Source: Draconibacterium orientale (GTDB lineage: Bacteria > Bacteroidota > Bacteroidia > Bacteroidales > FEN-979). From it: 64,000 bases of DNA. Shown piece after piece: positions 1 through 60,872 of the stretch. Numbering within the stretch: position 1 is the stretch's first letter; the number at the start of each line of letters is the position of its first letter. Position numbers and translations under genes: made by a program. Under the pieces are notes generated by a model. The model was not told the origin of the DNA. It did no database searches and saw nothing but the letters and a program-made list of their open reading frames with translations. The stretch is taken from assembly GCA_020718225.1 (NCBI GenBank), contig DYSO01000002.1, positions 5,361 through 69,360 of the forward strand. The letters run 5' to 3'.

Positions 1-11
1 TATGGATGTGT

Positions 12-153
12 GACAGGTTGGACAGGTTGAACAGGTTAACCTGGTTAACCTGGTTAACCCGGTTTAACATGGTCAACCTGGTTTAACCTGGTCCAACCTG
101 GTTTAACATGGTCAACCTGTTCCAACCTGTTCCAACCTGTTCCAACCTGTCAG
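12..153. repeat. Tandem array A: about 15 units of 9-10 nt. ACAGGTT-type units lie on the left, AACCTGGTT/AACATGGTC units in the middle and AACCTGTTCC units on the right. The ends are reverse complements of each other.
   Basis: Read directly: gacaggttg x2, aacaggtta, acctggtta x2, then aacctgttcc x3, then aacctgtcag. The right end overlaps the TGA stop (150-152, minus strand) of the transposase gene. Confidence 0.9.
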
Positions 154-713
154 TTTTCCAGGATGAACATTTTTATTTTTTCTTCATCTATTTCGGCAGA
201 GAGGTTTTCAGCAAGGGTTTTGCCATTATAAAAATATTTGGCAAGTTCCTCTTTGCAAATCAGACTTGGGCCGGAAGTAACGGTCGATCTGTACGATGAG
301 AACCGGTATCGTGAGTCATCATCGGCAATGCCATGTTTTCGGGCATTTTGATTGATATACCGGATCATTTCATAAAAATAATATTCCCGACGGATTTCAA
401 TACGCTTGAGTTTGAACTGAAACAATTTTCCTTCCTCTCCATTGTGGTTGTTATGCCCTTTGGCGTAAGCGTTGAAAAGTATGGAAAAAGGTCTGTACAG
501 GCTCCCTTCAGCATCACTTTTTATTCGCACCAGTAGATGAAGATGGTCTTTCAGAAGACAATAAGCATAGGTATCGGCAACAGGTGTGATATGCGATCGA
601 TATAGCCGAAGGAAAAACCGGTAATCTTCTTCATCTTCGAACAGTGGACCGCCATTTCTGGCCCGGTTATATATATGGTAATATTTTCCGGGCTCCAATA
701 ATAAAGTTTTCAT
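150..713 (-). CDS. IS200/IS605-type Y1 (HUH) transposase, RAYT-like
   Basis: 187-aa ORF. The HUH motif sits in KDHLHLLVRIK, and the catalytic-Tyr helix motif is MIRYINQNARKHGIA (the Y-x-x-x-N pattern typical of the Y1_Tnp / COG1943 family). It is flanked by repeat arrays. Confidence 0.8.
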   Translation of the reverse strand: MKTLLLEPGKYYHIYNRARNGGPLFEDEEDYRFFLRLYRSHITPVADTYAYCLLKDHLHLLVRIKSDAEGSLYRPFSILFNAYAKGHNNHNGEEGKLFQFKLKRIEIRREYYFYEMIRYINQNARKHGIADDDSRYRFSSYRSTVTSGPSLICKEELAKYFYNGKTLAENLSAEIDEEKIKMFILEN

Positions 714-822
714 AAGCAGTTTTTCTGCTTAATCGGAAAAACCTCAAAAAGTAATACGATTGTAAATTTTTTCCGAAAAATTCCAGATCCCCCTCTTTTT
801 CCTGTTAAACCAAGAAAAAACA

Positions 823-873
823 AGTTGACCAGGTTGACCAGGTTAACCTGGTTTAACCTGGTTTAACCTGTTA
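823..873. repeat. Tandem array B: 2x GACCAGGTT, a central GGTTAACC palindrome, then 2x AACCTGGTTT. It is an imperfect hairpin.
   Basis: Read directly: agttgaccaggttgaccaggttaacctggtttaacctggtttaacctg, followed immediately by tta, which is the stop codon of the minus-strand gene 871-3840. Confidence 0.9.
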
Positions 874-3840
874 CGGTTTATATACTACCCCCAGGTTCTT
901 TTTTCCGTCTATTGCAATCCGGATGGGTTTTTCGAAGTGGATGTGCCGGAGAAACTCATCTTCATAGGCTGCTGTTTGACCTGCCAGGTATTCAATATCA
1001 TAGAATCCATCGTTGATGAAAGGGTTTACCGTAAAATAGCCCACCCGGAATGAAGTGAGGTTTTGAAAAAAGTGGGTACCCTGGCTTGGGTCAATCCGGT
1101 AATGTTCGAGCCCCGATTCAACAATAAGCCTTGCTGCGCTGATCTGGGGCCATTTAACCGGGATTCCCAGCCATGGATCGCTGGAACCCCAGCGACCGGG
1201 GCCTACCAGTACATAATTTTTTTTCTCTGTTGTGAATTTATCGTTCAGCTTTTCAAGCAGATGAACTATTTCCTGGCTTTTTGAAGCATTAAAATTCTCA
1301 GGTTTTACGTAGACGAAATCGTGGATATTTTTAACGATGCCATTGCCCAGGGCAGTATTTGAAACCAGCAGCATATCTTCTTTACGGATATCTTCCGGCC
1401 GAAGGTTGATGGTTTCATCGCGTCCGGCGATGGGGCGGATCTGAAGCAAGCTGAAAATTTTGGGTTGTCCCTTGGGTAGATCGAGGTTTACCGCAAACTC
1501 AATTTCAACCGGTTTATTCATCTCCCGCTGACCTATTTCCAGCGCCTGGTTAAGAATTTCGGCCAAAGGAAAAGTATCATGATTAAGCAACTGCGAAAAA
1601 GTGATGATCCGTTTTCCATCGAATAAGGTCCCTTCTTTTAGTTGATGGCTCTCAAAATCAAAAGTTGATGCCACCATTTTCAAAGCGTTGTCATTTTCAG
1701 CATCCTTGATCCTCAGTTTCATGAGATTCACGGTATCATCCATGCTTGGTGCAAAACTCTCAGGACGGAGATCGAGGGCAAAAAAAGTTTTCTGTGTTTC
1801 ACTCAAGGCAAGGTCCGGAGTGGATAGTTGCAATATTTTTTTAGGATATTTCGGTGAAAACCGGATACCTATGCCACCATCAACGATATATTTCCCCAAT
1901 CCAAAAGCAATATTGGCAATGCCATCTTCTGGCTTCTCAGGGGCGATTGGATAAAAATTGATGGAACGGGCAACTCCCGAAATAGCCGGATAAAACCGAT
2001 CGCCATACTGGCGGCCGGTGACCTCCTGAAGCACAATCGCCATTTTTTCTTCGTCGATCATGTTAAGGGTCGCTGCCATGTATGATTTGCTATCTTTATA
2101 GTAGGCTGATGCATAAACACTTTTAATAGCATCCCCCAATTTATCGATCATGACCCGGTCGTTAAATTTAATATTTGGGATCATGTAGGTTGAATATATA
2201 CCTGCAAAAGGTTGATAATGTGAATCTTCGAGCAAACTTGAAGAACGGATCGCAATGGGGTTGTTGATACAGGAGATAAAACGGTACAGATCTTCATGGA
2301 TCCGGAAAGGCAACCTTGCTTTGACAAACCGCGCCAGAATATCTTTATCGCTCCGGTCGGAAAGGGCAATTTCATAGAGGTTGTTATCCTCCATAAACTC
2401 ATCAAAAATATCCGTTCCAAGAACCACTGTTCTGGGAATGGAAATAACAACATCCTCATACAGATCGGTAAGCCTGTTCCTTTTGATCAGGGAATCCAGA
2501 AATGCCAACCCCCGTGCTTTTCCGCCAATCGAACCTTCGCCGATACGGGCGAATTGCAGATATTCATCATAGCGGTCGCGGTCGAAATCGGCAATGACCC
2601 CTTTGGCTTTATTGATACGGAAAGCGGTGATGGAATCAAACAAATACCGTTTTGCTTCATCCATATCATTGGCGAATTCGGTTACCGATACTTCTTTAAA
2701 CATCTCGGCAATCGGGAATAAAGAGCGGGCATTCAACCATTTCGAAAAATGGTTCCGTTCCATATGATATAACAGGGAATCGTTCGGGATTTCAAAAATC
2801 TTATCCTGTAGTGATTTCAGGTCTACAGCCCGGGTGATCTCCCTTCCGTTTTTCGGATCGATGAAAATAAAATCGCCAAATGAAAAATATTCATTGATAT
2901 AATTCCGAAGTTCAATGGAAAGTGTTTTGGAAAGTTTGTTCAGGAACCCCACTTTCAGGTCATGGGCCAGGGTTTCGTATTCGGTATCGGTCGATTGAAA
3001 AAGAATGGGCATATAGGCATTTTCTGCACGGACTTTTTCAACGAATTTAATGCCTGCCGTTTTGTCGGTTACCCCGCCCCGCATAAAGCTGATATCGGTG
3101 ATAATCCCCAAAAGGTTTGCCTTATATTTTTCCCACATGCCAACGGCTTCTTCATAGTTGGTAGCAAGTAAAATTTTGCTCCGGCCACGCATCCTTAACA
3201 TTTTCTGGTGCTCGTTAAGGCCTTCGCTTACAGTAGTTTTCGATTGCTTCAGAAGAATTTTGTAAATATTTGGCAAATAGGTTGAATAAAAACGGATGGA
3301 ATCTTCAACCAGTAAGATGGCCTGTACCCCCTGTTTGACATCCTGGTCGATGTTCATTCTGTCCTCAATCAGTTTAATGATGGCCAACAGGATATCGGCA
3401 TTGCCAAGCCAGCTAAACACATAATCGATAGCGCTGAGGTCCTTTTCAACAAGTTTAAGGTTGACTTCGCGTGAAAAGGGAGTGAGTGCAACGATGGGTA
3501 TTGCCGGGTATTTTTTCTTGATCCGGATGGCCAGGTCGAAGGTGTCGGATTTTTCGATGTTCAGCATTGAAATAACCAATTCGACCCGCTTGTCTTCCAA
3601 CACTTCGAAGGCCTCTTCTTCCGAAGTGACTTTGAGAAACTGCGGCGGATAACGCAGGTTTAAAGAAACATATTCCAGAAAAATAGTCTCATCAATGCGG
3701 CCGTCTTCTTCCAGCATAAAAGCATCATAGGTGCTTGAAATAAGCAAGACCTGATATATCCGCCGTTTCATCAGAAGATTAAACGAGGTATCGATAAAGT
3801 AATACTTCTTCGGGTCCAGAACATTCTGTTTGTGCTTCAT
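871..3840 (-). CDS. Signal-transduction protein: pseudo-receiver + receiver + PEP/pyruvate-binding ATP-grasp domain (PPDK_N-like) + conserved C-terminal domain. It has no phosphohistidine swivel or PEP-utilizer TIM domain.
   Basis: 989-aa ORF. The first REC-like domain has VELVISMLNI, with no Asp at the acceptor position. The second has AILLVEDS, LLGIITDISF and PILFQST. ATP-grasp motifs are GGKARGLAFL, IRSSSLLEDS, PFAGIYSTY, and VEIEFAV followed by LLQIRP. The C-terminal domain carries GPGRWGSSDPWLGIPV and SQGTHFFQNLTS. It is a paralog of 10602-14477. Confidence 0.75.
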   Translation of the reverse strand: MKHKQNVLDPKKYYFIDTSFNLLMKRRIYQVLLISSTYDAFMLEEDGRIDETIFLEYVSLNLRYPPQFLKVTSEEEAFEVLEDKRVELVISMLNIEKSDTFDLAIRIKKKYPAIPIVALTPFSREVNLKLVEKDLSAIDYVFSWLGNADILLAIIKLIEDRMNIDQDVKQGVQAILLVEDSIRFYSTYLPNIYKILLKQSKTTVSEGLNEHQKMLRMRGRSKILLATNYEEAVGMWEKYKANLLGIITDISFMRGGVTDKTAGIKFVEKVRAENAYMPILFQSTDTEYETLAHDLKVGFLNKLSKTLSIELRNYINEYFSFGDFIFIDPKNGREITRAVDLKSLQDKIFEIPNDSLLYHMERNHFSKWLNARSLFPIAEMFKEVSVTEFANDMDEAKRYLFDSITAFRINKAKGVIADFDRDRYDEYLQFARIGEGSIGGKARGLAFLDSLIKRNRLTDLYEDVVISIPRTVVLGTDIFDEFMEDNNLYEIALSDRSDKDILARFVKARLPFRIHEDLYRFISCINNPIAIRSSSLLEDSHYQPFAGIYSTYMIPNIKFNDRVMIDKLGDAIKSVYASAYYKDSKSYMAATLNMIDEEKMAIVLQEVTGRQYGDRFYPAISGVARSINFYPIAPEKPEDGIANIAFGLGKYIVDGGIGIRFSPKYPKKILQLSTPDLALSETQKTFFALDLRPESFAPSMDDTVNLMKLRIKDAENDNALKMVASTFDFESHQLKEGTLFDGKRIITFSQLLNHDTFPLAEILNQALEIGQREMNKPVEIEFAVNLDLPKGQPKIFSLLQIRPIAGRDETINLRPEDIRKEDMLLVSNTALGNGIVKNIHDFVYVKPENFNASKSQEIVHLLEKLNDKFTTEKKNYVLVGPGRWGSSDPWLGIPVKWPQISAARLIVESGLEHYRIDPSQGTHFFQNLTSFRVGYFTVNPFINDGFYDIEYLAGQTAAYEDEFLRHIHFEKPIRIAIDGKKNLGVVYKP

Positions 3841-8072: not shown

Positions 8073-8085
8073 TGGGATAAGTATT

Positions 8086-8131
8086 GGTGAGGGGTGAGTG
8101 GTGAGTAGTGAGTGGTGAGTGGTGAGTGGTG
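8086..8131. repeat. Tandem array C: 6.5 units of the heptamer GGTGAGT
   Basis: Read directly: ggtgagg ggtgagt ggtgagt agtgagt ggtgagt ggtgagt ggtg, then tta, the stop of gene 8132-9907. The array ends 13 nt before the next start codon at 8072. Confidence 0.9.
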
Positions 8132-10510: not shown

Positions 10511-10557
10511 ATTTCTTGATTTTATAAAAACACCCTGCAATAACCCCCTATTAAAAA

Positions 10558-10601
10558 CACCTGTCCAACCTGTCCACCTGTCCAACCTGTCCAACCCGTT
10601 C
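10558..10601. repeat. Tandem array D: 5 units of C(A)ACCTGTC, ending in CAACCCGTTC
   Basis: Read directly: cacctgtc caacctgtc cacctgtc caacctgtc caacccgttc, then tta, the stop of gene 10602-14477. It lies 47 nt upstream of the nuoE-like start. Confidence 0.9.
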
Positions 10602-13600
10602 TTACTTTTCCTCTTCCCAGGTAATGACCGAAATACGTTTCTTTCCGTCCATTCTGATACAGAGCGGGTGGTCAAAATGGATGATTGAGAAAAAATCTGT
10701 TTTCCTTAGATTTTTCTGGCTTTTTAAAATATCATATCGGATAAAACTGTTGGTCAATTCAGGCTGGATGCAAAAGTAACCCACATTCATAGAGGTTACA
10801 TTATGGAAAAAATGAGATCCTGACGAGGCATCGAGTGGAAATCCTTCAAGGCTGGTTTCGACAATGATCTTGGCATGGCTGATCTGAGGCCATGCAACCG
10901 GGATACCAATCCAGCGGTCGCGTGTGCCCCATCGTCCCGGGCCAATCAGGACATAATTTTTTCCCTCTCTTCCCATCTCAGCATTAATGGTATCAATCTC
11001 CGCCGCCATTTCAACGGTCTTCGATTTGTCGAAGGTATCCGGATCTACAAAAATTACATCGTAAATATTGTCAATCAATCCGTTGCCCATCTCTTTTTCA
11101 GAATACAGAAGGATTTGGTCCCGGTTGATCTTCTCCATATCAATATGAAAATCGGTAGCATTGCCGATCAGTGGTTTTATCTGAAGCAGATAGAAAGAAG
11201 CTTTATTATCGTCATCCTTGTTCAGATCGATGGCAAACTCCATTTCCACCGGTGAACCCAGCGCCTCTTTGACTACATCGAGCACCACTTCAATGGTTTT
11301 TGCAAGGGGAATATAGTTGTATTTTAAAATATCGGCAAAGTTGAGTACCCGCGGGCCGCCATCGCGTAATCCGGCAGTAATCCGATCATTTTCAACGGAA
11401 TAAACCGAAGCGCAGTGCTTCAGGGTCCCATGCATTTCGGCATCGTAGATATCCATTTTCCGAAGGCCGGCATCTTCGCCTTCCAACAGGTTCATCTCCT
11501 TTTTTTGCAGATCCACGGCATAAAAATAGACCTGCGACCCTTTGTACTGATCCTTTGGCGAATTGATTTCAAGAGTTGGATACAAGGGTGAAAAACGGAA
11601 TGCCTTTTCTCCCTCAACCACATAGCGTCCAAGGCCTAATGCAATTACGGCAAACCCCTCTTCGGGTTTCATATGGGCAAATGGATAATAATTATAGGAT
11701 TGGGCAACTCCGCTGATATGTGGATAGTACACATCGGCATATTGGTTTCCGACGACCTCCTGGATTACAACGGCCATCTTTTCCTGCTCTATGCGATAAT
11801 TAACCGCTTCGATGTACCCCTTGGCAATGGGGGAATACACGGAAGCATAAACCAGTTTGATTGCATCCATCAATTGATCAAGCCGCACTTTTGGGTCCGG
11901 ATGACAATTGGGGATCAGGTAGGTTTCGAAGATTCCTGCAAAAGGCTGATTAAGAGAATCTTCAAAGAGTCCGGAAGAACGTATTGCCAAAGGCTTCGTG
12001 ATATTTTTAATGATTAATTTCAACTTCCGGATAAGGGTTTCTGTGAGCCTGCCTTCCAAAAACCACCTTTTTATCTGGTCATAATCTGACTCATAGACTG
12101 CTTTTTCCCTCAATTTATTCCTGTCAAGGAAATATTCAAATTCATCGGTACCCACAATGGAGGTTTTCGGGGTACGGATTTTAATGTTGGGGATGTGTTG
12201 AGAAAAATCGTAATTGTATATTAACGTGTTGATAAAAGCGAGCCCGCGTCCTTTTCCCCCCAACGCCCCTTCGGTCAGCGCCAGGATATTACGTTCGTCG
12301 GATATAGCCGATTCCTCAAAAGGGATCACCTTCCCGGTATTTTGTTCGTTGCGGAAATGCTGGATCACATTGATGAGGTATTCGCGTAACGAAGTCGGAT
12401 CTTTAAAATCGGTCACTTTTGCCGGGTTCAGTATCTTGGCAACCTGAATTTCTCCACGGGCCATCAGCCAAAGGGAGAAGTGGTCTTTCCGTGCATGATA
12501 TAAGAGAGATTCTTCCGGGATGGTCTTTAGTAAATCCTCAAATTCTTTCAGCGAACGTGCAACAGCGATCTGGGTACCCTCCTGATCGCGATAAATAAAA
12601 CTGCCAAATCCCAGATAATGGGTAATGAAACTTTTAAAATCAAGAAGCAGGGTTTCTGAATTTTTATTAATAAAAGAGGCTTTTAATTCATATGCTCTCT
12701 GGGCATTAATTTCATCGGACGACTGCATCACAATGGGAAGGTCTTTAATCTCCTTCCGGGTCTGCCTGACCAGGCTGAACCCCGCCGTATTGTTCAGTTT
12801 GCCATCCTTTTTAAATTTCACATCTGAAATGAGACAAAGGATAAAGTCTTTGTACTTGTTAAAAATATAGAGGGCCTCTTCATAAGTTGAGGCCAATAGA
12901 ATTTTCGGTCGTGCTTTCAGTCTGAGGATGCGGTACAATTCATCGGTAGTAACATCCTCAATGATGTTTTTAGTCTGTTCCAGCACGATATTGTACAACA
13001 TCGGAAGGTATAATGAATAATACTTTGAGGAATCTTCTACCAGCAGGATGACCCGTGTCATGCCAATGGTGGTATCGTTTTCCACATTGATTTTGTCTTC
13101 CAGATAGTTGATCATTGCGAAGAAGATCTTGGAATCGCCATTCCAGACAAAAATCCGGTCGACCCAGGTCAGTTTTTCAGGTTCTTCTTCATATTTAGCG
13201 ATCTCTGTATTGCTGTTCAATAAAAGGAATACGGGAATATACTGATATTTTTCCTTGACGGTTTTACTCAGTTCTACCGGGAATTGTTTATCCGTACCGA
13301 TCATGATGATGATCAGGTCGTAATGTTTCAGACTGAGTTGTTCCATTACCTCACCGATCGTTGATACACCGGTGATCCGTGGCATGGTACTCAGGCTCAG
13401 TGCATAAAATTCCCCCAGTACATGTTCTGAAAAACGGCCTTCCTTTTCGATGCTATAAGCGTCATAGAGATTGGCGACCAATAATATCTCTTTGACTTTA
13501 AAAGGCATCAGGTCATGATACAGGTCGCGGTTATAGTTGGTACGATTTAAAAAGGTCTGGAGGAGTTGACGGCTGTATTTAACCGGGCCGGAAGCATCCG

Positions 13601-27276: not shown

Positions 27277-27446
27277 TTTTTAAAACTGCTTATCCCTTTC
27301 GGTCAGGCCAGATTAACGGCCATAAAATAAATTACCCCTGGCTTTTGCGCGTCTTCCATTTAAATGCCTTAATTTTTCGCCATGTCGAAGGCACCTCATC
27401 CCCCTAACCCTCCTCCCAAGTGTGAAGGAGAACCTCTCTCCAGTCC

Positions 27447-27488
27447 CACCTGTCCACCTGTTCCACCTGTCCACCTGTCCAACCCGTC
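27447..27488. repeat. Tandem array E: 5 units of CACCTGT(T)C, ending in CAACCCGTC
   Basis: Read directly: cacctgtc cacctgttc cacctgtc cacctgtc caacccgtc, then cta, the stop of gene 27489-28604. It has the same unit family and terminal unit as array D. Confidence 0.9.
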
Positions 27489-28604
27489 CTACTCCACCCG
27501 AATCAATTTCTGCACGGTTTTAGAGTTACCCGATGTAAGTACACAAAGGTAAACACCCGGAGCGCCGGCGCCGGCATTCCATGTAACTTTATGGTATCCG
27601 GAGGGGAGTATCTGACTGATCAGTGTATCCTTCAGTACACCCGTATTATCATACACCATCAGGGTAACCGGAGTATTATCATGCCTGATTTCGAAAGCAA
27701 TGGTCGTCTCCCTGATGAAAGGGTTAGGGAAGTTAGGGAGCAGCCGGGGTTTTCCCAGGTCAACCGGTACCTGGACGGAAAGAGGGTAAAATACCGGACT
27801 TCCAGCCTGGACCCAGGCGGTATAAATTAGGTCGGCAAGCGATCCTGAAGCGCGCCGCAACAAATCGATGGTAAAAAGTCCTGTTTTGTTCCACAGCGCC
27901 TGGTAGTAGGCGTCGGAATTGTTATTCCCTGCTTCGGCCCGGGCTTCATTATCAGCAATCATAATGCTATCGACATATTGATAATTAAAGTAAAGGCTGG
28001 AGAATACAAAACTGCTGACATCGTTGATATAGTGAACCGAGTCTGCCGGATATATAAGCATCGCTTCATAACGGCTGATCATCCGGGACTCATACCGGGA
28101 ATGGACCCCATTCTGACCGGTATATTGACCGTCGTAGTTCCTTGTAATGTGCAGGGGCATGTGTCCGTCACCCACATAATGACCCAGGTCGGCTGCGAAC
28201 AGTGCCGATTTCAGCCAATCATGACGTTCAAAACAGGCCTTGAGTGAATCGAAGGTGATCAGGGTTGCCCAGGGTAAAATTCCCTGGTCTATCACAAAAG
28301 CGTAACCATGTAATGCAACAACGCTATCAAAACGGGTTGGGATATGACCGGTTTGCAAAAATTCGGGGTAGTTGTCGATATCGATATAATGTTTTGGCGA
28401 CTCGTTCGGATCGGTATCTTTACGGTTATCGGCCTCGGAGGCATATAAAGTTACAATGTTGGTCCAGTCGGGCTTCAGGAAGGAAAGACGGACAGGAAAA
28501 AAGTTGGCGGTATTCTGGTTGATGACCCGGTGGCCTTTGTATCCCCAACCGGAAAAAATTACACCAAGGAAAACCAATGGGAGGATAAGCCTGAGTTTTT
28601 TCAT
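27489..28604 (-). CDS. Secreted S1/P1-type zinc nuclease family protein with a T9SS C-terminal sorting domain
   Basis: Signal peptide. S1-P1 motifs are WGYKGHRVI (WGxxGH), HYVGDGHMPLH (HxxGDxHQPLH) and GVHSRYE. The C-terminal 80 aa (FPNPFIRETT through GVYLCVLTSGNSKTVQKLIRVE) form a Por secretion tail. Confidence 0.75.
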   Translation of the reverse strand: MKKLRLILPLVFLGVIFSGWGYKGHRVINQNTANFFPVRLSFLKPDWTNIVTLYASEADNRKDTDPNESPKHYIDIDNYPEFLQTGHIPTRFDSVVALHGYAFVIDQGILPWATLITFDSLKACFERHDWLKSALFAADLGHYVGDGHMPLHITRNYDGQYTGQNGVHSRYESRMISRYEAMLIYPADSVHYINDVSSFVFSSLYFNYQYVDSIMIADNEARAEAGNNNSDAYYQALWNKTGLFTIDLLRRASGSLADLIYTAWVQAGSPVFYPLSVQVPVDLGKPRLLPNFPNPFIRETTIAFEIRHDNTPVTLMVYDNTGVLKDTLISQILPSGYHKVTWNAGAGAPGVYLCVLTSGNSKTVQKLIRVE

Positions 28605-45320: not shown

Positions 45321-45433
45321 GGACAGGTTAAAACAGGTTAAAACAGGTTAAACAGGTTAAAACAGGTTAAAACAGGTTAAACAGGTTAACTTGGTTAACT
45401 TGGTTAACTTGGTTAACTTGGTTAACTTGGTTT
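45321..45433. repeat. Tandem array F: 7 units of ACAGGTTAA(A) followed by about 5 units of CTTGGTTAA
   Basis: Read directly. The TAA stop of ccmC (45422-45424) lies inside one CTTGGTTAA unit, and the last partial unit encodes the final codons (K-P-S). The array ends 7 nt from the ccmD start. Confidence 0.92.
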
Positions 45434-58489: not shown

Positions 58490-58534
58490 GACGGGTTGGA
58501 CATGGGGACAAATTTTTTTAAATAAAACAGGGAT

Positions 58535-60211
58535 ATGTCCGACGATCGTAAAATCATCTTTTCCATGGTGGGTGTCTCCAAGAGTTATCCACCGCACAAA
58601 CAGGTACTGAAAAACATCTACCTTTCCTTCTTTTATGGGGCAAAAATCGGAATCATTGGCCTGAATGGGTCCGGTAAGTCAACATTAATGAAAATCATTG
58701 CCGGCGTTGAAAAATCGTTTCAGGGAGAGGTTGTTTTTTCACCCGGATACTCCGTGGGATATCTTGAACAGGACCCTTATCTGGACGACTCAAAAACCGT
58801 CAGGGAAATTGTAGAAGAGGGGGCCGGCGAAATAGTAAGCCTTCTCAAAGAGTACGAAACGGTCAACAACAGGTTCTCAGAACCCATGAGCGACGATGCG
58901 ATGGAAAAGCTCATCAACCGGCAGGGAGAACTTACGGAATTGTTAGACCAACACAATGGCTGGGAACTCGACAGCAAGCTTGACCGGGCCATGGACGCCC
59001 TCCGCTGCCCGGAGCCTGATTCGCCGGTTAAAAATTTATCGGGGGGCGAACGCCGCCGGGTTGCTTTGTGCCGTTTATTATTGCAGGAACCCGACATCCT
59101 GCTGCTCGATGAACCTACCAACCACCTTGACGCCGAATCGGTACAATGGCTTGAACTCCACCTGCAACAATACAAAGGGACTGTAATTGCCATCACCCAC
59201 GACCGCTATTTTCTCGATAACGCTGCCGGATGGATCCTGGAACTCGACCGTGGGGAAGGAATACCCTGGCAGGGAAATTATACCTCCTGGCTGGAACAGA
59301 AATCGACCCGCCTGGCCATGGAAGAAAAAACAGAAAGCAAACGCCGCAAAACCCTGGAACGGGAGCTGGAATGGGTCCGCATGTCCCCAAAAGCACGTCA
59401 GGCAAAGGGAAAAGCCCGTCTGAATGCCTATGATAAAATGATGAGCGAAGATATCAGGGAAAAAGAAGAACGTCTTGAATTATATATCCCCAATGGTCCC
59501 CGGCTGGGAAACCGGGTGATTGAAGCCATTGACGTTTCCAAATCATTCGACGACAAACTGCTTTTCGAAAAATTGAATTTTTCCCTTCCCCCGGCCGGGA
59601 TCGTGGGTGTTATCGGAGCCAACGGAGCAGGAAAAACAACACTCTTCCGCATGATCATGGGAGCAGAAACGGCATCTTCCGGTTCATTCTCCATCGGCGA
59701 AACAGTCAAAATAGGATATGTGGATCAAAGCCACACCGCCATCGACCCTGAAAAAACCGTTTTCCAGGTGATTTCCGGCGGGGCTGAAAACCTTCAAATG
59801 GGGGGCCGTACCATGAGCGCCCGCGCCTATGTTGCACGATTTAATTTCAGTGGCGCCGACCAGGAAAAAAAATGCGGCGTGCTGTCCGGCGGCGAACGCA
59901 ACCGCCTGCACCTGGCCCTGACCCTGAAAGAAGAGGCCAATGTCCTGCTCCTTGATGAACCAACCAACGACATCGATGTCAATACCCTTCGCGCCCTCGA
60001 AGAGGGATTGGATAATTTTGCCGGTTGCGCGGTGATCATCTCCCACGACCGATGGTTTCTCGACCGGATCGCTACCCATATCCTGGCTTTTGAAGGCGAT
60101 TCTCAGGTAGGTTTCTTTGAAGGGTCCTTTTCTGACTACGAAGAAAATAAGAAAAAAAGAATGGGCGATGATACGCCACACCGGATCCGGTATAAAAAGC
60201 TTAAGGGATAG
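58535..60211 (+). CDS. ettA: Energy-dependent translational throttle ABC-F ATPase EttA
   Basis: 558-aa ORF with two ABC cassettes (GLNGSGKST and LSGGERRRVAL; GANGAGKTT and LSGGERNRLHL). The EttA-type N-terminus is IFSMVGVSKSYPPHKQVLKNI, with an arm/linker region. Confidence 0.92.
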   Translation: MSDDRKIIFSMVGVSKSYPPHKQVLKNIYLSFFYGAKIGIIGLNGSGKSTLMKIIAGVEKSFQGEVVFSPGYSVGYLEQDPYLDDSKTVREIVEEGAGEIVSLLKEYETVNNRFSEPMSDDAMEKLINRQGELTELLDQHNGWELDSKLDRAMDALRCPEPDSPVKNLSGGERRRVALCRLLLQEPDILLLDEPTNHLDAESVQWLELHLQQYKGTVIAITHDRYFLDNAAGWILELDRGEGIPWQGNYTSWLEQKSTRLAMEEKTESKRRKTLERELEWVRMSPKARQAKGKARLNAYDKMMSEDIREKEERLELYIPNGPRLGNRVIEAIDVSKSFDDKLLFEKLNFSLPPAGIVGVIGANGAGKTTLFRMIMGAETASSGSFSIGETVKIGYVDQSHTAIDPEKTVFQVISGGAENLQMGGRTMSARAYVARFNFSGADQEKKCGVLSGGERNRLHLALTLKEEANVLLLDEPTNDIDVNTLRALEEGLDNFAGCAVIISHDRWFLDRIATHILAFEGDSQVGFFEGSFSDYEENKKKRMGDDTPHRIRYKKLKG

Positions 60212-60264
60212 AGAAGTAGCGAGGTAGCGAAATAGCGAGGTAGCGAAATAGCGAAATAGCGAAA
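60209..60264. repeat. Tandem array G: 7 units of the octamer TAGCGARR (the first unit is degenerate), strictly 8-nt periodic
   Basis: Read directly: tagagaag tagcgagg tagcgaaa tagcgagg tagcgaaa tagcgaaa tagcgaaa. The TAG of the first unit is the ettA stop codon (60209-60211). Confidence 0.9.
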
Positions 60265-60331
60265 TCGTTAAACCCTGAAATTTTTTGGGCTATTATTTGG
60301 TAGCAATGGAGAAGGTTTTCATAGAAGAAAT

Positions 60332-60835
60332 ATGATTAAAATCGACACCCGTTTACTTGACGAAATCTCTGCCCTTGGAAAGGCCTCTCCCCGCCGCCGG
60401 ATGAATTATAATTTTCACAAAGAATATTCAGATACCCTTCAGCGGATGCTCAATGCCATGGAGCCCTTTTCATATATTCAACCGCACAAACATGAAAATC
60501 CCGATAAACGGGAAGCTTTCTTAGCGCTTCGCGGAAGATTTGTTGTCATAGAATTCGACGAATTTGGAAATATTACCGATCACACCCTGCTTGACCCTTT
60601 GAAAGGAAACTTTGGCGCCGAAATTCCAAAGTGCACTTTTCATACCATCATTGCACTCGATCCGGATACCGTTGCCTATGAGGTCAAGGATGGACCTTAT
60701 TCACCCAATGACGATAAGAATTTTGCATCCTGGGCGCCAAAAGAGGGATCGCCGGAAGCTGATGATTATCTCCGGAATCTGCTCGATAAATGTAACTATT
60801 CCTTTCAAAATCAGCATCGGAACGTTTTAGAATAG
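60332..60835 (+). CDS. WbuC family cupin-fold metalloprotein
   Basis: 167-aa ORF with SPRRRMNYNFHKEYSDTLQRMLNAMEPFSYIQPHKHENPDKREAFLALRG, which is characteristic of the WbuC cupin family. Confidence 0.75.
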   Translation: MIKIDTRLLDEISALGKASPRRRMNYNFHKEYSDTLQRMLNAMEPFSYIQPHKHENPDKREAFLALRGRFVVIEFDEFGNITDHTLLDPLKGNFGAEIPKCTFHTIIALDPDTVAYEVKDGPYSPNDDKNFASWAPKEGSPEADDYLRNLLDKCNYSFQNQHRNVLE

Positions 60836-60872
60836 GTAACCATCAGAATCGGAACGTTTCAGGATTGGTAAC
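60810..60872. repeat. Tandem duplication of a 31-nt segment spanning the wbuC-family stop codon
   Basis: atcagcatcggaacgttttagaataggtaac (60810-60840) versus atcagaatcggaacgtttcaggattggtaac (60842-60872). 27 of 31 positions are identical. Confidence 0.8.

What the first reader, a model, noticed from the sequence alone, without database searches (positions are those of the whole stretch)
1..873. A Y1/HUH (RAYT-like) transposase gene bracketed by foldback arrays of 9-10 nt tandem units
**Seen.** The 187-aa protein has an HUH motif (DHLHLLV) and the Tyr-helix motif RYINQNARKHG. There is no tnpB partner and there are no ordinary IS ends. Both flanks are arrays of very short tandem units.

- Positions 12-153 run from ACAGGTT-type units, through AACCTGGTT/AACATGGTC units, to AACCTGTTCC units. 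Its two ends are reverse complements, so about 140 nt could fold back on itself.
- Positions 823-873 are 2x GACCAGGTT, then a GGTTAACC centre, then 2x AACCTGGTTT.

**Known.** RAYTs are single-copy domesticated Y1 transposases flanked by inverted REPs, which they bind and cleave as ssDNA hairpins.

**Inference.** Described REPs are 20-40 nt imperfect palindromes, not microsatellite-like arrays. This could therefore be a distinct REP/RAYT flavour in which the hairpin substrate is assembled from 9-10 nt tandem units. Units of the same family recur at 10558-10601, 27447-27488 and 45321-45433.
Basis: partly seen in the sequence, partly recalled or inferred. Interest (0 to 1): 0.72.

Follow-up and report, generated by a model that had tools for sequence, protein, structure and literature searches.

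The report
RAYT gene flanked by tandem-unit repeats
A single-copy, domesticated transposase-like gene (a RAYT) in an uncultured Bacteroidales bacterium is bracketed by fast-changing arrays of 8-10-base units instead of the usual palindromic REP hairpins. The same unit family sits just after the stop codons of other genes, so it may be a new form of the REP/RAYT partnership, but that link is not proven.

Summary
Window 150..713 (-) encodes a 187-aa HUH/Y1 protein whose predicted fold best matches E. coli TnpA-REP (4ER8). It is single-copy in the window, syntenic in relatives and under strong purifying selection.

Both flanks are tandem arrays of 9-10-nt units that fold back. Two independent assemblies reproduce them base for base. 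Units with the same ACAGGT/ACCTGT core recur at four more gene 3' ends in the window and on unrelated contigs from the metagenome sample that yielded relatives L003/L004.

Support for "these arrays are this RAYT's REP equivalent":
- Homologs of a ~40%-identical sister clade are flanked by classic 15-bp-stem REP hairpins (AGACCTGACAGGTTT...) that contain the array unit GACAGGTT.
- The arrays sit where REPs sit, and their end units supply stop codons, as REP ends do.
- The two arrays flanking the 99%-identical gene are in inverted orientation.

Against it:
- Most of the 187-aa clade has neither REPs nor arrays at its flanks.
- Arrays with unrelated 7-8-nt units abound in these genomes and also abut stop codons.
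- Orthologous sites show growth in place from 1-2-unit seeds.
- One-orientation arrays cannot form hairpins.

Verdict: a new variant of a known kind. The RAYT link is plausible (about 0.5), not proven.

The parts
150..713 (-). 187-aa RAYT-type HUH/Y1 gene. HUH is at H57/H59 and the catalytic Tyr at Y119.
   Evidence: ORF. NCBIfam REP_Tyr_transpos scores 44 bits, below the cutoff of 80. H57 and H59 are invariant and Y119 is at least 90% conserved. AlphaFold pLDDT is 92. The best fold match is 4ER8, E = 2e-8. dN/dS is 0.05-0.1.
11..152 (.). Foldback array that fills the whole spacer between the convergent Metallophos gene (stop TGA at 11-13, + strand) and the RAYT (stop at 150-152). It runs (ACAGGTTG)x3, then GGTTAACCT x3, then 19-nt compound units, then (AACCTGTTCC)x4. 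Both stop codons lie in terminal units.
   Evidence: Identical in L220 and L221.
823..873 (.). Foldback array between the stop of the 989-aa PPDK_N/response-regulator gene (871-873) and the RAYT promoter region: GACCAGGTT x2, centre GGTTAACC, AACCTGGTTT x2, AACCTGTTA.
   Evidence: Identical in L220 and L221.
714..730 (-). Conserved hairpin AAGCAG-AAAAA-CTGCTT that abuts the RAYT start codon. It probably lies in the 5' UTR.
   Evidence: About 17 of 24 distinct upstream sequences fold into a hairpin that ends within about 3 nt of the ATG; 21 of 24 fold at or below -2 kcal/mol in some form. Stem sequences differ (GGCU/AGCC, GCGG/CCGC, GCC/GGC).
10556..10601 (-). One-orientation array abutting the stop (10602-10604) of the 1299-aa gene. 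Sense strand: GAACGGGTTG-(GACAGGTKG)x4.
   Evidence: Absent from the orthologous spacer of L001 and L004.
27445..27488 (-). One-orientation array abutting the stop (27489-27491) of a T9SS-tail protein gene. Sense strand: GACGGGTTG-(GACAGGTG)x4-GGA.
   Evidence: Relatives have only GACGGGCTGG (L224, L225) or (GAAGGAC)x6.3 (L222) at this place.
45321..45433 (.). Compound array in the ccmC-ccmD spacer: (ACAGGTTAAA)x7 then (GGTTAACTT)x5. The ccmC stop (45422-45424) lies inside an array unit near the ccmC-proximal end of the array.
   Evidence: The 80%-identical relative L215 has 2 units, AACCTGTTTAACCCGTTTT.
58490..58511 (+). Decayed copy, GACGGGTTGGACATGGGGACAA, directly after the TGA of the 57329..58489 gene.

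Best explanation
The gene is a vertically inherited, single-copy RAYT-type HUH/Y1 enzyme of an uncultured Bacteroidales (Prolixibacteraceae-like) lineage. The ACAGGT/ACCTGT-core arrays that bracket it, and that follow the stop codons of at least four other genes in the window, are this lineage's counterpart of REP sequences. They form a dispersed, non-coding repeat family descended from, or convergent on, the CAGGTT/AACCTG hairpin arms that related RAYTs carry. Here the family is built from 8-10-nt units repeated head to tail.

Where two opposed arrays meet, at 11-152 and 823-873 (and at L124 elsewhere), the ssDNA can form a long slipped hairpin. That structure is the plausible RAYT substrate during replication.

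Unit number then changes quickly. The cause is slipped-strand mispairing, possibly helped by RAYT cleavage and rejoining in a shifted register. This makes the arrays behave as VNTRs that differ between strains with about 99%-identical flanks.

Shown: the gene's fold, conservation and synteny; that the arrays are real, variable and dispersed; their position at stop codons; and their sequence relation to sister-clade REPs.

Inferred: that this protein binds, cuts, seeds or resizes the arrays.
For: 1. RAYT identity.
2. Domesticated behaviour: same neighbours (PPDK_N-RR gene | RAYT | Metallophos, His_Phos_1) in relatives with 78%-identical RAYTs, and the same neighbourhood with inserted genes in the 64%-identical relative L008. 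dN/dS is 0.05-0.1. One copy in the window.
3. Both spacers flanking the gene belong to one repeat family. With 6 family sites among about 41 spacers, chance is about 0.02. In the 99%-identical allele (L001-L003) the two flanking arrays are reverse complements: (GGACAGGTT)n upstream and (AACCTGTCC)n downstream.
4. About 30 of 37 sister-clade genes (37-45% identity; Chloroflexi, Cytophagales, Methylobacter and others) have REP hairpins with 15-nt stems and consensus AGACC-TGACA-GGTYT / ARACC-TGTCA-GGTCT next to them, most on both sides and often touching the stop codon. The array unit GACAGGTT is an 8-mer of that arm. A published subclass-2.6 REP is CCCAGGTTG-loop-CAACCTGGG.
5. Independent arrays share end structures. 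Stop-GACGGGTTGGACAGGT occurs at 10602, 27489, 58489 and upstream in L001. The centre CAGGTTAA(A)CCTGGTYAACCTGG occurs at window 32, window 839 and L124.
6. More family members lie in spacers on unrelated contigs from the metagenome sample that yielded L003/L004: L124, L128 and L130 (L189 is from elsewhere). None of them carries a RAYT.
7. The ACCTG core is over-represented among arrays near other clade members: 5 of 52 against 1.5% expected, p = 0.001. Arrays are enriched right after the RAYT stop: 10 of 39 against 16 of 167 other ORFs, p = 0.013.
8. REP-like placement: the arrays lie between co-directional or convergent genes, and their ends supply stop codons, as reported for GTAG REPs (PMC3733652).
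Against: - 29 of 39 genes of the same 187-aa clade have no array after their stop, and 0 of 42 have REP hairpins. The protein is therefore conserved without flanking repeats.
- The 78%-identical allele (L004-L007) sits in the same place with bare flanks.
- Three of six window sites are one-orientation arrays that cannot form a hairpin, yet every studied Y1 enzyme recognises a hairpin.
- Arrays with unrelated units (TGGTGAG, ATAGCGAA, GAATGAC, AAGTTTT, CCACTGCA and others) are common in these genomes and also abut stop codons: 25 of 45. A sequence-independent array-forming process therefore exists.
- Orthologous comparisons show growth from seeds already in place: 2 to 12 units at ccmC-ccmD, and 1 to 5 units at the T9SS gene. 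They do not show clean insertions.
- AACCTG is generally about 2.3-fold over-represented in the window outside arrays, which weakens the core-match statistics.
- No whole-genome census was possible.
Confidence: 0.5

Rival explanations
1. The arrays are ordinary long-unit simple-sequence repeats (VNTRs). Replication slippage makes and resizes them at permissive spacers next to stop codons, a habit of this bacterial group. The RAYT merely sits between two such spacers and does nothing to them. The shared core reflects common descent of old arrays, ectopic conversion or composition bias.
For: - 7-12-nt arrays with diverse units occur in many loci, and 25 of 45 intergenic ones start within 12 nt of a stop codon.
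- The heptamer array at 8085-8131 is conserved in position while its unit drifts.
- Arrays grew in place from seeds.
- L001 and L002 differ by whole units.
- Most clade members have bare flanks.
- Heptamer direct repeats of unknown origin are already described in Bacteroidetes, Cyanobacteria and Beggiatoaceae (PMC4679880).
Against: Slippage alone does not explain several findings:
- One core dominates 6 of about 9 arrays in 64 kb.
- Independent arrays share the same terminal variant unit and the same foldback centre.
- Both RAYT flanks belong to that family, in inverted orientation.
- The unit matches the REP arm of sister-clade RAYTs.
Confidence: 0.33
2. The arrays are kept by selection as 3'-UTR or intercistronic RNA or DNA elements. 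They might act as exonuclease barriers, as terminators, or as binding sites for an RNA- or DNA-binding protein. Their orientation follows transcription, not RAYT action.
For: - After a stop codon, the sense strand reads (G)GACAGGT in about 10 of 12 cases. At convergent gene pairs the array reverses in the middle.
- Foldback arrays would give stable stem-loops.
- REPs themselves are thought to act this way (PMC3733652).
Against: - No intrinsic-terminator signature and no Rfam family.
- Copy number and even unit type differ between strains with about 99%-identical flanks.
- Arrays are absent at the same sites in close relatives, which argues against a needed function.
- One exception to the orientation rule is the ccm spacer.
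Confidence: 0.12
3. This is an active IS200/IS605-type insertion sequence whose ends are the arrays.
For: A Y1 transposase fold with inverted repeats on both sides.
Against: - Single copy in the window, with no tnpB.
- The same chromosomal neighbourhood in relatives down to 64% identity.
- dS is saturated between alleles while the position is fixed.
- No subterminal IS hairpins.
- The arrays vary independently of the gene.
Confidence: 0.03

Closest known systems
REP/RAYT (TnpA-REP, 'REPtron') systems, for example E. coli YafM with REP/BIME (PDB 4ER8) and Pseudomonas REPIN-RAYT
   Same: - A single-copy, vertically inherited HUH/Y1 gene.
- It is flanked on both sides, in inverted orientation, by a short repeat family that is also scattered in spacers at gene 3' ends.
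- The repeat ends supply stop codons.
- The predicted fold is closest to 4ER8.
   Different: - The repeats are head-to-tail arrays of 8-10-nt units, not 20-40-nt imperfect palindromes.
- There is no GT[AG]G foot.
- Half of the sites cannot form a hairpin.
- Copy number is hypervariable.
- The protein scores below the NCBIfam cutoff and has no Pfam hit.
- Most members of its clade have no flanking repeats.
TnpA-Y1 subclass 2.6 of Quentin et al. 2018 (= RAYT group 5 of Bertels et al. 2017), mostly Bacteroidetes, 'flanked by atypical secondary structures' (PMC6006769)
   Same: - Bacteroidetes host, about 180 aa and low copy number.
- A conserved SS motif after the Tyr helix (S139 and S140 are invariant).
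- The sister clade has the YIH[QN]NP-type Tyr motif.
- Flanking repeats lack GTAG.
- One listed REP, CCCAGGTTG...CAACCTGGG, shares the core.
   Different: - All structures listed for 2.6 are single hairpins with 8-10-bp stems; none is a tandem-unit array.
- The window protein has DHLH and YINQNA, with F instead of W in the 'WQ' motif.
- Membership was not tested with the authors' models.
Short tandemly repeated intergenic heptamers: TAACTGA repeats of Beggiatoaceae, Cyanobacteria and Bacteroidetes (PMC4679880); cyanobacterial STRR and the 5-11-bp 'long SSRs' of Mrazek et al. 2007 (the last two from my own knowledge)
   Same: - Head-to-tail units of 7-10 nt, intergenic and next to coding sequence.
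- Strain-variable copy number.
- Compound arrays of different units side by side.
- No known generating mechanism.
   Different: - Those repeats were not linked to any transposase-like gene.
- In the Beggiatoa-like BOGUAY genome they lie mostly just upstream of start codons. Here they lie just after stop codons.
- Here one unit family dominates and brackets a RAYT.
IS200/IS605 insertion sequences (IS608, ISDra2)
   Same: An HUH/Y1 catalytic domain, and an expected need for ssDNA.
   Different: Not multi-copy, no tnpB, no left-end or right-end subterminal hairpins, and a fixed chromosomal position.

Membership tests
HUH/Y1 endonuclease superfamily (IS200/IS605 TnpA-like) | HUH metal-binding motif on a beta strand | tested here: met
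   The motif is DHLHLL. H57 and H59 are invariant in 33 homologs and lie on strand E57-64 of the model.
HUH/Y1 endonuclease superfamily (IS200/IS605 TnpA-like) | Single catalytic Tyr on the following helix | tested here: met
   Y119 in RYINQN lies on helix 110-121. It is at least 90% conserved; two homologs have F or C at this position.
HUH/Y1 endonuclease superfamily (IS200/IS605 TnpA-like) | Pfam PF01797 (Y1_Tnp) match above the gathering score | tested here: not met
   No Pfam hit at E <= 1. Some 40%-identical homologs do carry PF01797.
HUH/Y1 endonuclease superfamily (IS200/IS605 TnpA-like) | TnpA fold | tested here: met
   Foldseek hits: 4ER8 at E = 2.3e-8 with TM 0.60/0.66, then 2F4F, 2XO6 and 2VJV.
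RAYT / TnpA-REP | NCBIfam NF047646 equivalog cutoff (80 bits) | tested here: not met
   44.1 bits, E = 1.9e-11.
RAYT / TnpA-REP | Single copy, chromosomal, vertically inherited | tested here: met
   One copy in 64 kb. The same neighbourhood occurs in relatives at 78% and 64% identity. dN/dS is 0.05-0.1. The whole genome was not searched.
RAYT / TnpA-REP | Flanked by REP hairpins (20-40-nt imperfect palindromes, usually with a GT[AG]G foot) | tested here: not met
   The flanks are tandem 9-10-nt units with no GTAG. 0 of 42 clade members have hairpins with stems of 10 nt or more of REP type, against about 30 of 37 sister-clade genes.
RAYT / TnpA-REP | Flanking repeat family also dispersed in extragenic space of the same genome | tested here: met
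   Four further sites lie in the window. L124, L128 and L130 come from the metagenome sample that yielded L003/L004.
RAYT / TnpA-REP | Protein binds and cleaves its repeat as ssDNA | not testable with these tools
   This needs biochemistry.
IS200/IS605 insertion sequence | Several near-identical copies with subterminal hairpins, often with tnpB | tested here: not met
   no tnpB among the neighbours.
Intergenic short tandem direct repeats (STRR / long-SSR / TAACTGA type) | Head-to-tail 5-11-nt units, non-coding, with copy number variable between strains | tested here: met
   TRF results. L001 and L002 have 6.8 and 2 units. The window and L001 have about 99%-identical flanks but different arrays.

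The most novel reading that the evidence does not exclude
This Bacteroidales RAYT clade has exchanged hairpin REPs for register-slipping tandem arrays, and the enzyme itself seeds them at stop codons and adds or removes units by cutting and rejoining ssDNA in a shifted register. If so, RAYT-like HUH enzymes would be the missing generator of the stop-codon-abutting 7-10-nt tandem arrays (STRR, long-SSR and TAACTGA type) seen in Bacteroidota, Chloroflexi, Cyanobacteria and Beggiatoaceae.
Probability: 0.15. Interest if true: 0.85.

Novelty: new variant of a known kind. Interest (0 to 1): 0.62.

Why it matters
RAYTs are the best example of a transposase kept by its host for millions of years together with a population of tiny repeats, but only hairpin REPs have been described as partners. 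A RAYT whose flanking and dispersed repeats are variable tandem arrays sharing the hairpin-arm sequence of related REPs would show how such a repeat population can change form.

It would also give the first concrete candidate enzyme for short intergenic tandem arrays, whose origin in several bacterial phyla has been unexplained for decades. The test is simple: purified protein against array oligonucleotides.

In practice, these arrays break short-read assemblies (several contigs end in them) and would serve as strain markers.

Tried and rejected
- **Rfam scan of 1-1200** (E <= 1): only noise hits from the hairpin.
- **Terminator and promoter scan of 1-1000:** no terminator.
It gave a few relevant loci but no census.
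- **Array-polymorphic population variants**, sought through exact-protein look-ups: the contigs found were identical strains.
- **Do the arrays mark recombination breakpoints of a mobile RAYT cassette?** No. The switch from L005-like to L001-like sequence lies inside the PPDK_N gene about 2.2 kb away.
- **A shared [GT][GT]AC cleavage-like tetranucleotide in array units:** present in about 26% of units against about 23% expected, by hand count, so dropped.
- **RNAalifold on the 5' hairpin:** Per-sequence folding was used instead.
- **Canonical sister-clade REP hairpins in the window:** none.
- **Literal REP sequence strings in the literature:** only irrelevant hits.
Full report
**1.

The minus-strand ORF 150..713 encodes 187 aa with DHLHLLV and RYINQNARKHG. 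Tandem Repeats Finder reports arrays at 12-149 (periods 9, 10, 19 and 39) and at 824-870 (periods 9 and 10), and same-core arrays at 10558-10596, 27443-27489 and 45323-45432.

As ssDNA, 1-170 folds at -46.9 kcal/mol (z = -7.5) and 810-885 at -13.8 kcal/mol (z = -3.2).

The first array lies near the window start. It is nevertheless internal to, and identical in, two independent assemblies from different sequencing runs, L220 and L221, as is the upstream array. There the RAYT is convergent with a Metallophos gene, and the 136-nt spacer between the two TGA stops consists entirely of array units. Both stop codons lie in terminal units (T-GACAGGTT).

**2. The protein**

- Pfam gives no hit. NCBIfam REP_Tyr_transpos gives 44 bits, below its cutoff of 80.
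- A search of the large protein collection finds 1181 relatives.
- In an alignment of 33 relatives, H57, H59 and the SS pair at 139-140 are invariant, and Y119 is at least 90% conserved.
- A profile of this alignment hits only 4ER8, E. coli TnpA-REP, among PDB sequences.
- The AlphaFold model (pLDDT 92) matches 4ER8 best (E = 2.3e-8, TM 0.60/0.66), then the IS200, ISDra2 and IS608 transposases.
- dN/dS against relatives is 0.05-0.1.
- The window holds one copy and no tnpB.
- In relatives with 78%-identical RAYTs the gene has the same neighbours: PPDK_N response-regulator gene upstream, Metallophos and His_Phos_1 downstream. In the 64%-identical relative L008 the neighbourhood is the same, but several genes lie in between.

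It therefore behaves as a domesticated RAYT, not as an insertion sequence. Homologs come from Bacteroidales, Prolixibacteraceae and Draconibacterium MAGs.

**3. Two clades with different flanks**

I scanned 80 homolog loci from GTDB genomes.

- **Sister clade** (about 200 aa, 37-45% identity; Chloroflexi, Cytophagales, Methylobacter, Acidobacteriota, and one Bacteroidales member). About 30 of 37 genes have classic REP hairpins with 15-nt stems next to them, most on both sides. The consensus is AGACC-TGACA/TCACA-GGTYT, a loop, then ARACC-...-GGTCT. The hairpins often touch the stop codon.
- **187-aa clade.** No such hairpin occurs in 42 loci. Instead, 10 of 39 genes have a tandem array of 7-8-nt units within 40 nt after the stop, against 16 of 167 other ORFs (p = 0.013). 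Five of those 16 lie in the RAYT's own upstream spacer. Units differ by lineage: GAATGAC, GAATTAC, GATTTAC, AAGTTTT, GTGTTAA, TGGAACC.

The window's unit GACAGGTT (= AACCTGTC) is an 8-mer inside the commonest sister-clade REP arm, AGACCTGACAGGTTT. Among 52 arrays in other 187-aa-clade loci, 5 carry the ACCTG/CAGGT core against 1.5% expected (p = 0.001). AACCTG is about 2.3-fold over-represented in the window in general, so the real significance is weaker.

**4. The array family in this genome**

- With the decayed copy at 58490-58511, six of about 41 spacers in the window hold ACAGGT-family arrays.
- Independent sites share end structures. Stop codon-GA(A)CGGGTTGGACAGGT occurs at 10602, 27489 and 58489, and a closely similar CGGGTTGGACAGGT follows the stop upstream of the L001 RAYT. 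The exact 14-mer occurs twice, and 9 matches with up to 2 mismatches occur against 0.38 expected.
- The foldback centre CAGGTTAA(A)CCTGGTYAACCTGG is shared by window 32, window 839 and L124.
It still returned further intergenic family members on contigs from the metagenome sample that yielded relatives L003 and L004 (L124, L128, L130), plus L189 from elsewhere. None overlaps the window and none carries a RAYT.
- Arrays lie between co-directional or convergent genes and start 0-8 nt from the upstream stop. After the stop, the sense strand reads (G)GACAGGT in about 10 of 12 cases, and the array reverses in the middle at the convergent pair.
- REP ends that supply stop codons, and this same placement, are documented for GTAG REPs (PMC3733652).

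**5. Dynamics**

The last 2 kb before the RAYT are 99-100% identical between the window and L001, yet the arrays differ completely.

| Flank | L001 | Window |
|---|---|---|
| Upstream | (GGACAGGTT)x~7 | Foldback of GACCAGGTT and AACCTGGTTT units |
| Downstream | (AACCTGTCC)x5 | 140-nt foldback |

L001 and L002 differ by whole units.

Orthologous sites in more distant relatives show seeds rather than empty sites.

| Site | Window | Relatives |
|---|---|---|
| ccmC-ccmD spacer | 12 units | 2 units in the 80%-identical relative L215 |
| T9SS gene 3' end | GACGGGTTG plus four GACAGGTG | Only GACGGGCTGG in L224/L225; (GAAGGAC)x6.3 in L222 |
| PPDK_N gene stop | Foldback array 823-873 | A single TAACAGGTC in L004 |

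The family is therefore old. It grows and shrinks in place, and it bloomed in the window/L001 lineage.

**6. Context that cuts the other way**

- Arrays with unrelated units are frequent in these genomes. Examples are window 8085-8131 (TGGTGAG), window 60208-60265 (ATAGCGAA), and five different heptamer arrays in a row in L029.
- Of 45 intergenic arrays, 25 begin within 12 nt of a stop codon and 2 within 12 nt of a start.
- Some units are visibly duplications of the gene's own end, for example ...GAAGAATGA-CGAATGA-CGAATGA after the RAYT of L030.
- Heptamer direct repeats with no known mechanism and no transposase link are described in Bacteroidetes, Cyanobacteria and Beggiatoaceae (PMC4679880).

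A unit-independent array-forming process is therefore at work, and the RAYT flanks could simply be two more of its sites.

**7. Literature position**

Quentin et al. 2018 (PMC6006769) define subclass 2.6 (Bertels group 5). It is mostly Bacteroidetes, about 179 aa, has an SS motif, and is 'flanked by atypical secondary structures', copies of which occur elsewhere in the genome. Their table lists only single hairpins with 8-10-bp stems for this subclass, one of them CCCAGGTTG-loop-CAACCTGGG. Di Nocera et al. 2013 describe tandem reiteration only of whole REPs. I found no description of RAYT-associated arrays of 8-10-nt units.

**8. Verdict**

The gene is a RAYT-type enzyme of a REP-less, syntenic Bacteroidales clade. 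Its flanks and several other stop-codon-adjacent spacers carry one hypervariable tandem-unit repeat family. The core of that family matches the REP arms of related RAYTs.

Three lines of evidence, each modest (p about 0.001-0.02) and not fully independent, tie the family to the RAYT:
- both flanks belong to the family;
- the unit matches the sister-clade REP arm;
- arrays in general are enriched right after RAYT genes, and the ACCTG core is over-represented among arrays in RAYT-bearing loci of the clade.

The general abundance of unrelated arrays, the bare flanks of most clade members and the in-place growth from seeds keep the slippage-only rival alive.

| Explanation | Probability |
|---|---|
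| REP-equivalent of this RAYT | about 0.5 |
| Slippage-only | about 0.33 |
| Selected RNA/DNA element | about 0.12 |
| Active IS | about 0.03 |

Noticed in passing
window 714-730 (- strand), and the same place in L001-L053: The hairpin AAGCAG-AAAAA-CTGCTT ends at the RAYT start codon, preceded by conserved GATTA. Other subclades keep a hairpin there with different stems (UGGCU/AGCCA, GCGG/CCGC, GCC/GGC). It resembles the translational stem-loop of IS200, or it could be a residual binding site for the protein.
   Followed up: partly
window 8085-8131; L001 2544-2616; L004 2573-2645; L005 1178-1252: A heptamer array sits between two genes of an NADH-dehydrogenase/hydrogenase-like operon. Its position is conserved but its unit drifts: CTCACCA in the window and L005, TCACTAT in L001 and L004.
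   Followed up: partly
L011-L053 and the window (all short-period arrays): Of 45 intergenic arrays of 6-12-nt units, 25 start within 12 nt of a stop codon and only 2 within 12 nt of a start. Several units contain the stop codon and the last sense codon of the gene (for example GAATGAC after ...GAAGAATGA in L030, L033 and L035).
   Followed up: partly
window about 870-3100 compared with L001 and L005: The window is a mosaic. It is 97-100% identical to L005 up to about 2.2 kb before the RAYT, then 99-100% identical to L001. The two RAYT alleles differ with dS about 2, while neighbouring genes are 84-95% identical. This implies allele exchange by recombination, or old balanced alleles.
   Followed up: partly
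L008 9564-10004; also L009 and L010 (second gene called there); L019 and L020 (inferred from similar coding sequence upstream): In some relatives a second Y1 gene (146 aa, PF01797) lies directly upstream and overlaps the RAYT homolog by 4 nt, giving a two-Y1 operon.
   Followed up: no
P0031 and P0032 (alignment A1, column of Y119): Two otherwise intact homologs have Phe or Cys in place of the catalytic tyrosine.
   Followed up: no
L213 and L214 contig ends; L009 5689-5718; L018 5887-5936: Several short-read contigs stop inside these arrays, so the arrays fragment assemblies and will be under-counted in MAGs.
   Followed up: no
window 45422-45433; L215 2539-2564: The last codons and stop of ccmC lie inside repeat units (CAATGAC heptamers, then CCAAGTTAA), so the protein's C-terminus is partly repeat-encoded.
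   Followed up: no
window 60208-60265 and 60810-60872: An (ATAGCGAA)x7 array overlaps the stop of the 58535..60211 gene, and a 32-nt unit is repeated twice after the next gene. Neither is related to the ACAGGT family.
   Followed up: no
L222 11116-11159; L045 8396-8433; L050 4549-4568: The unit GGACGAG/GAAGGAC recurs as a stop-abutting array in different genomes and after different genes. It is one indel away from GGACAGGT, which hints at a wider unit family.
   Followed up: partly
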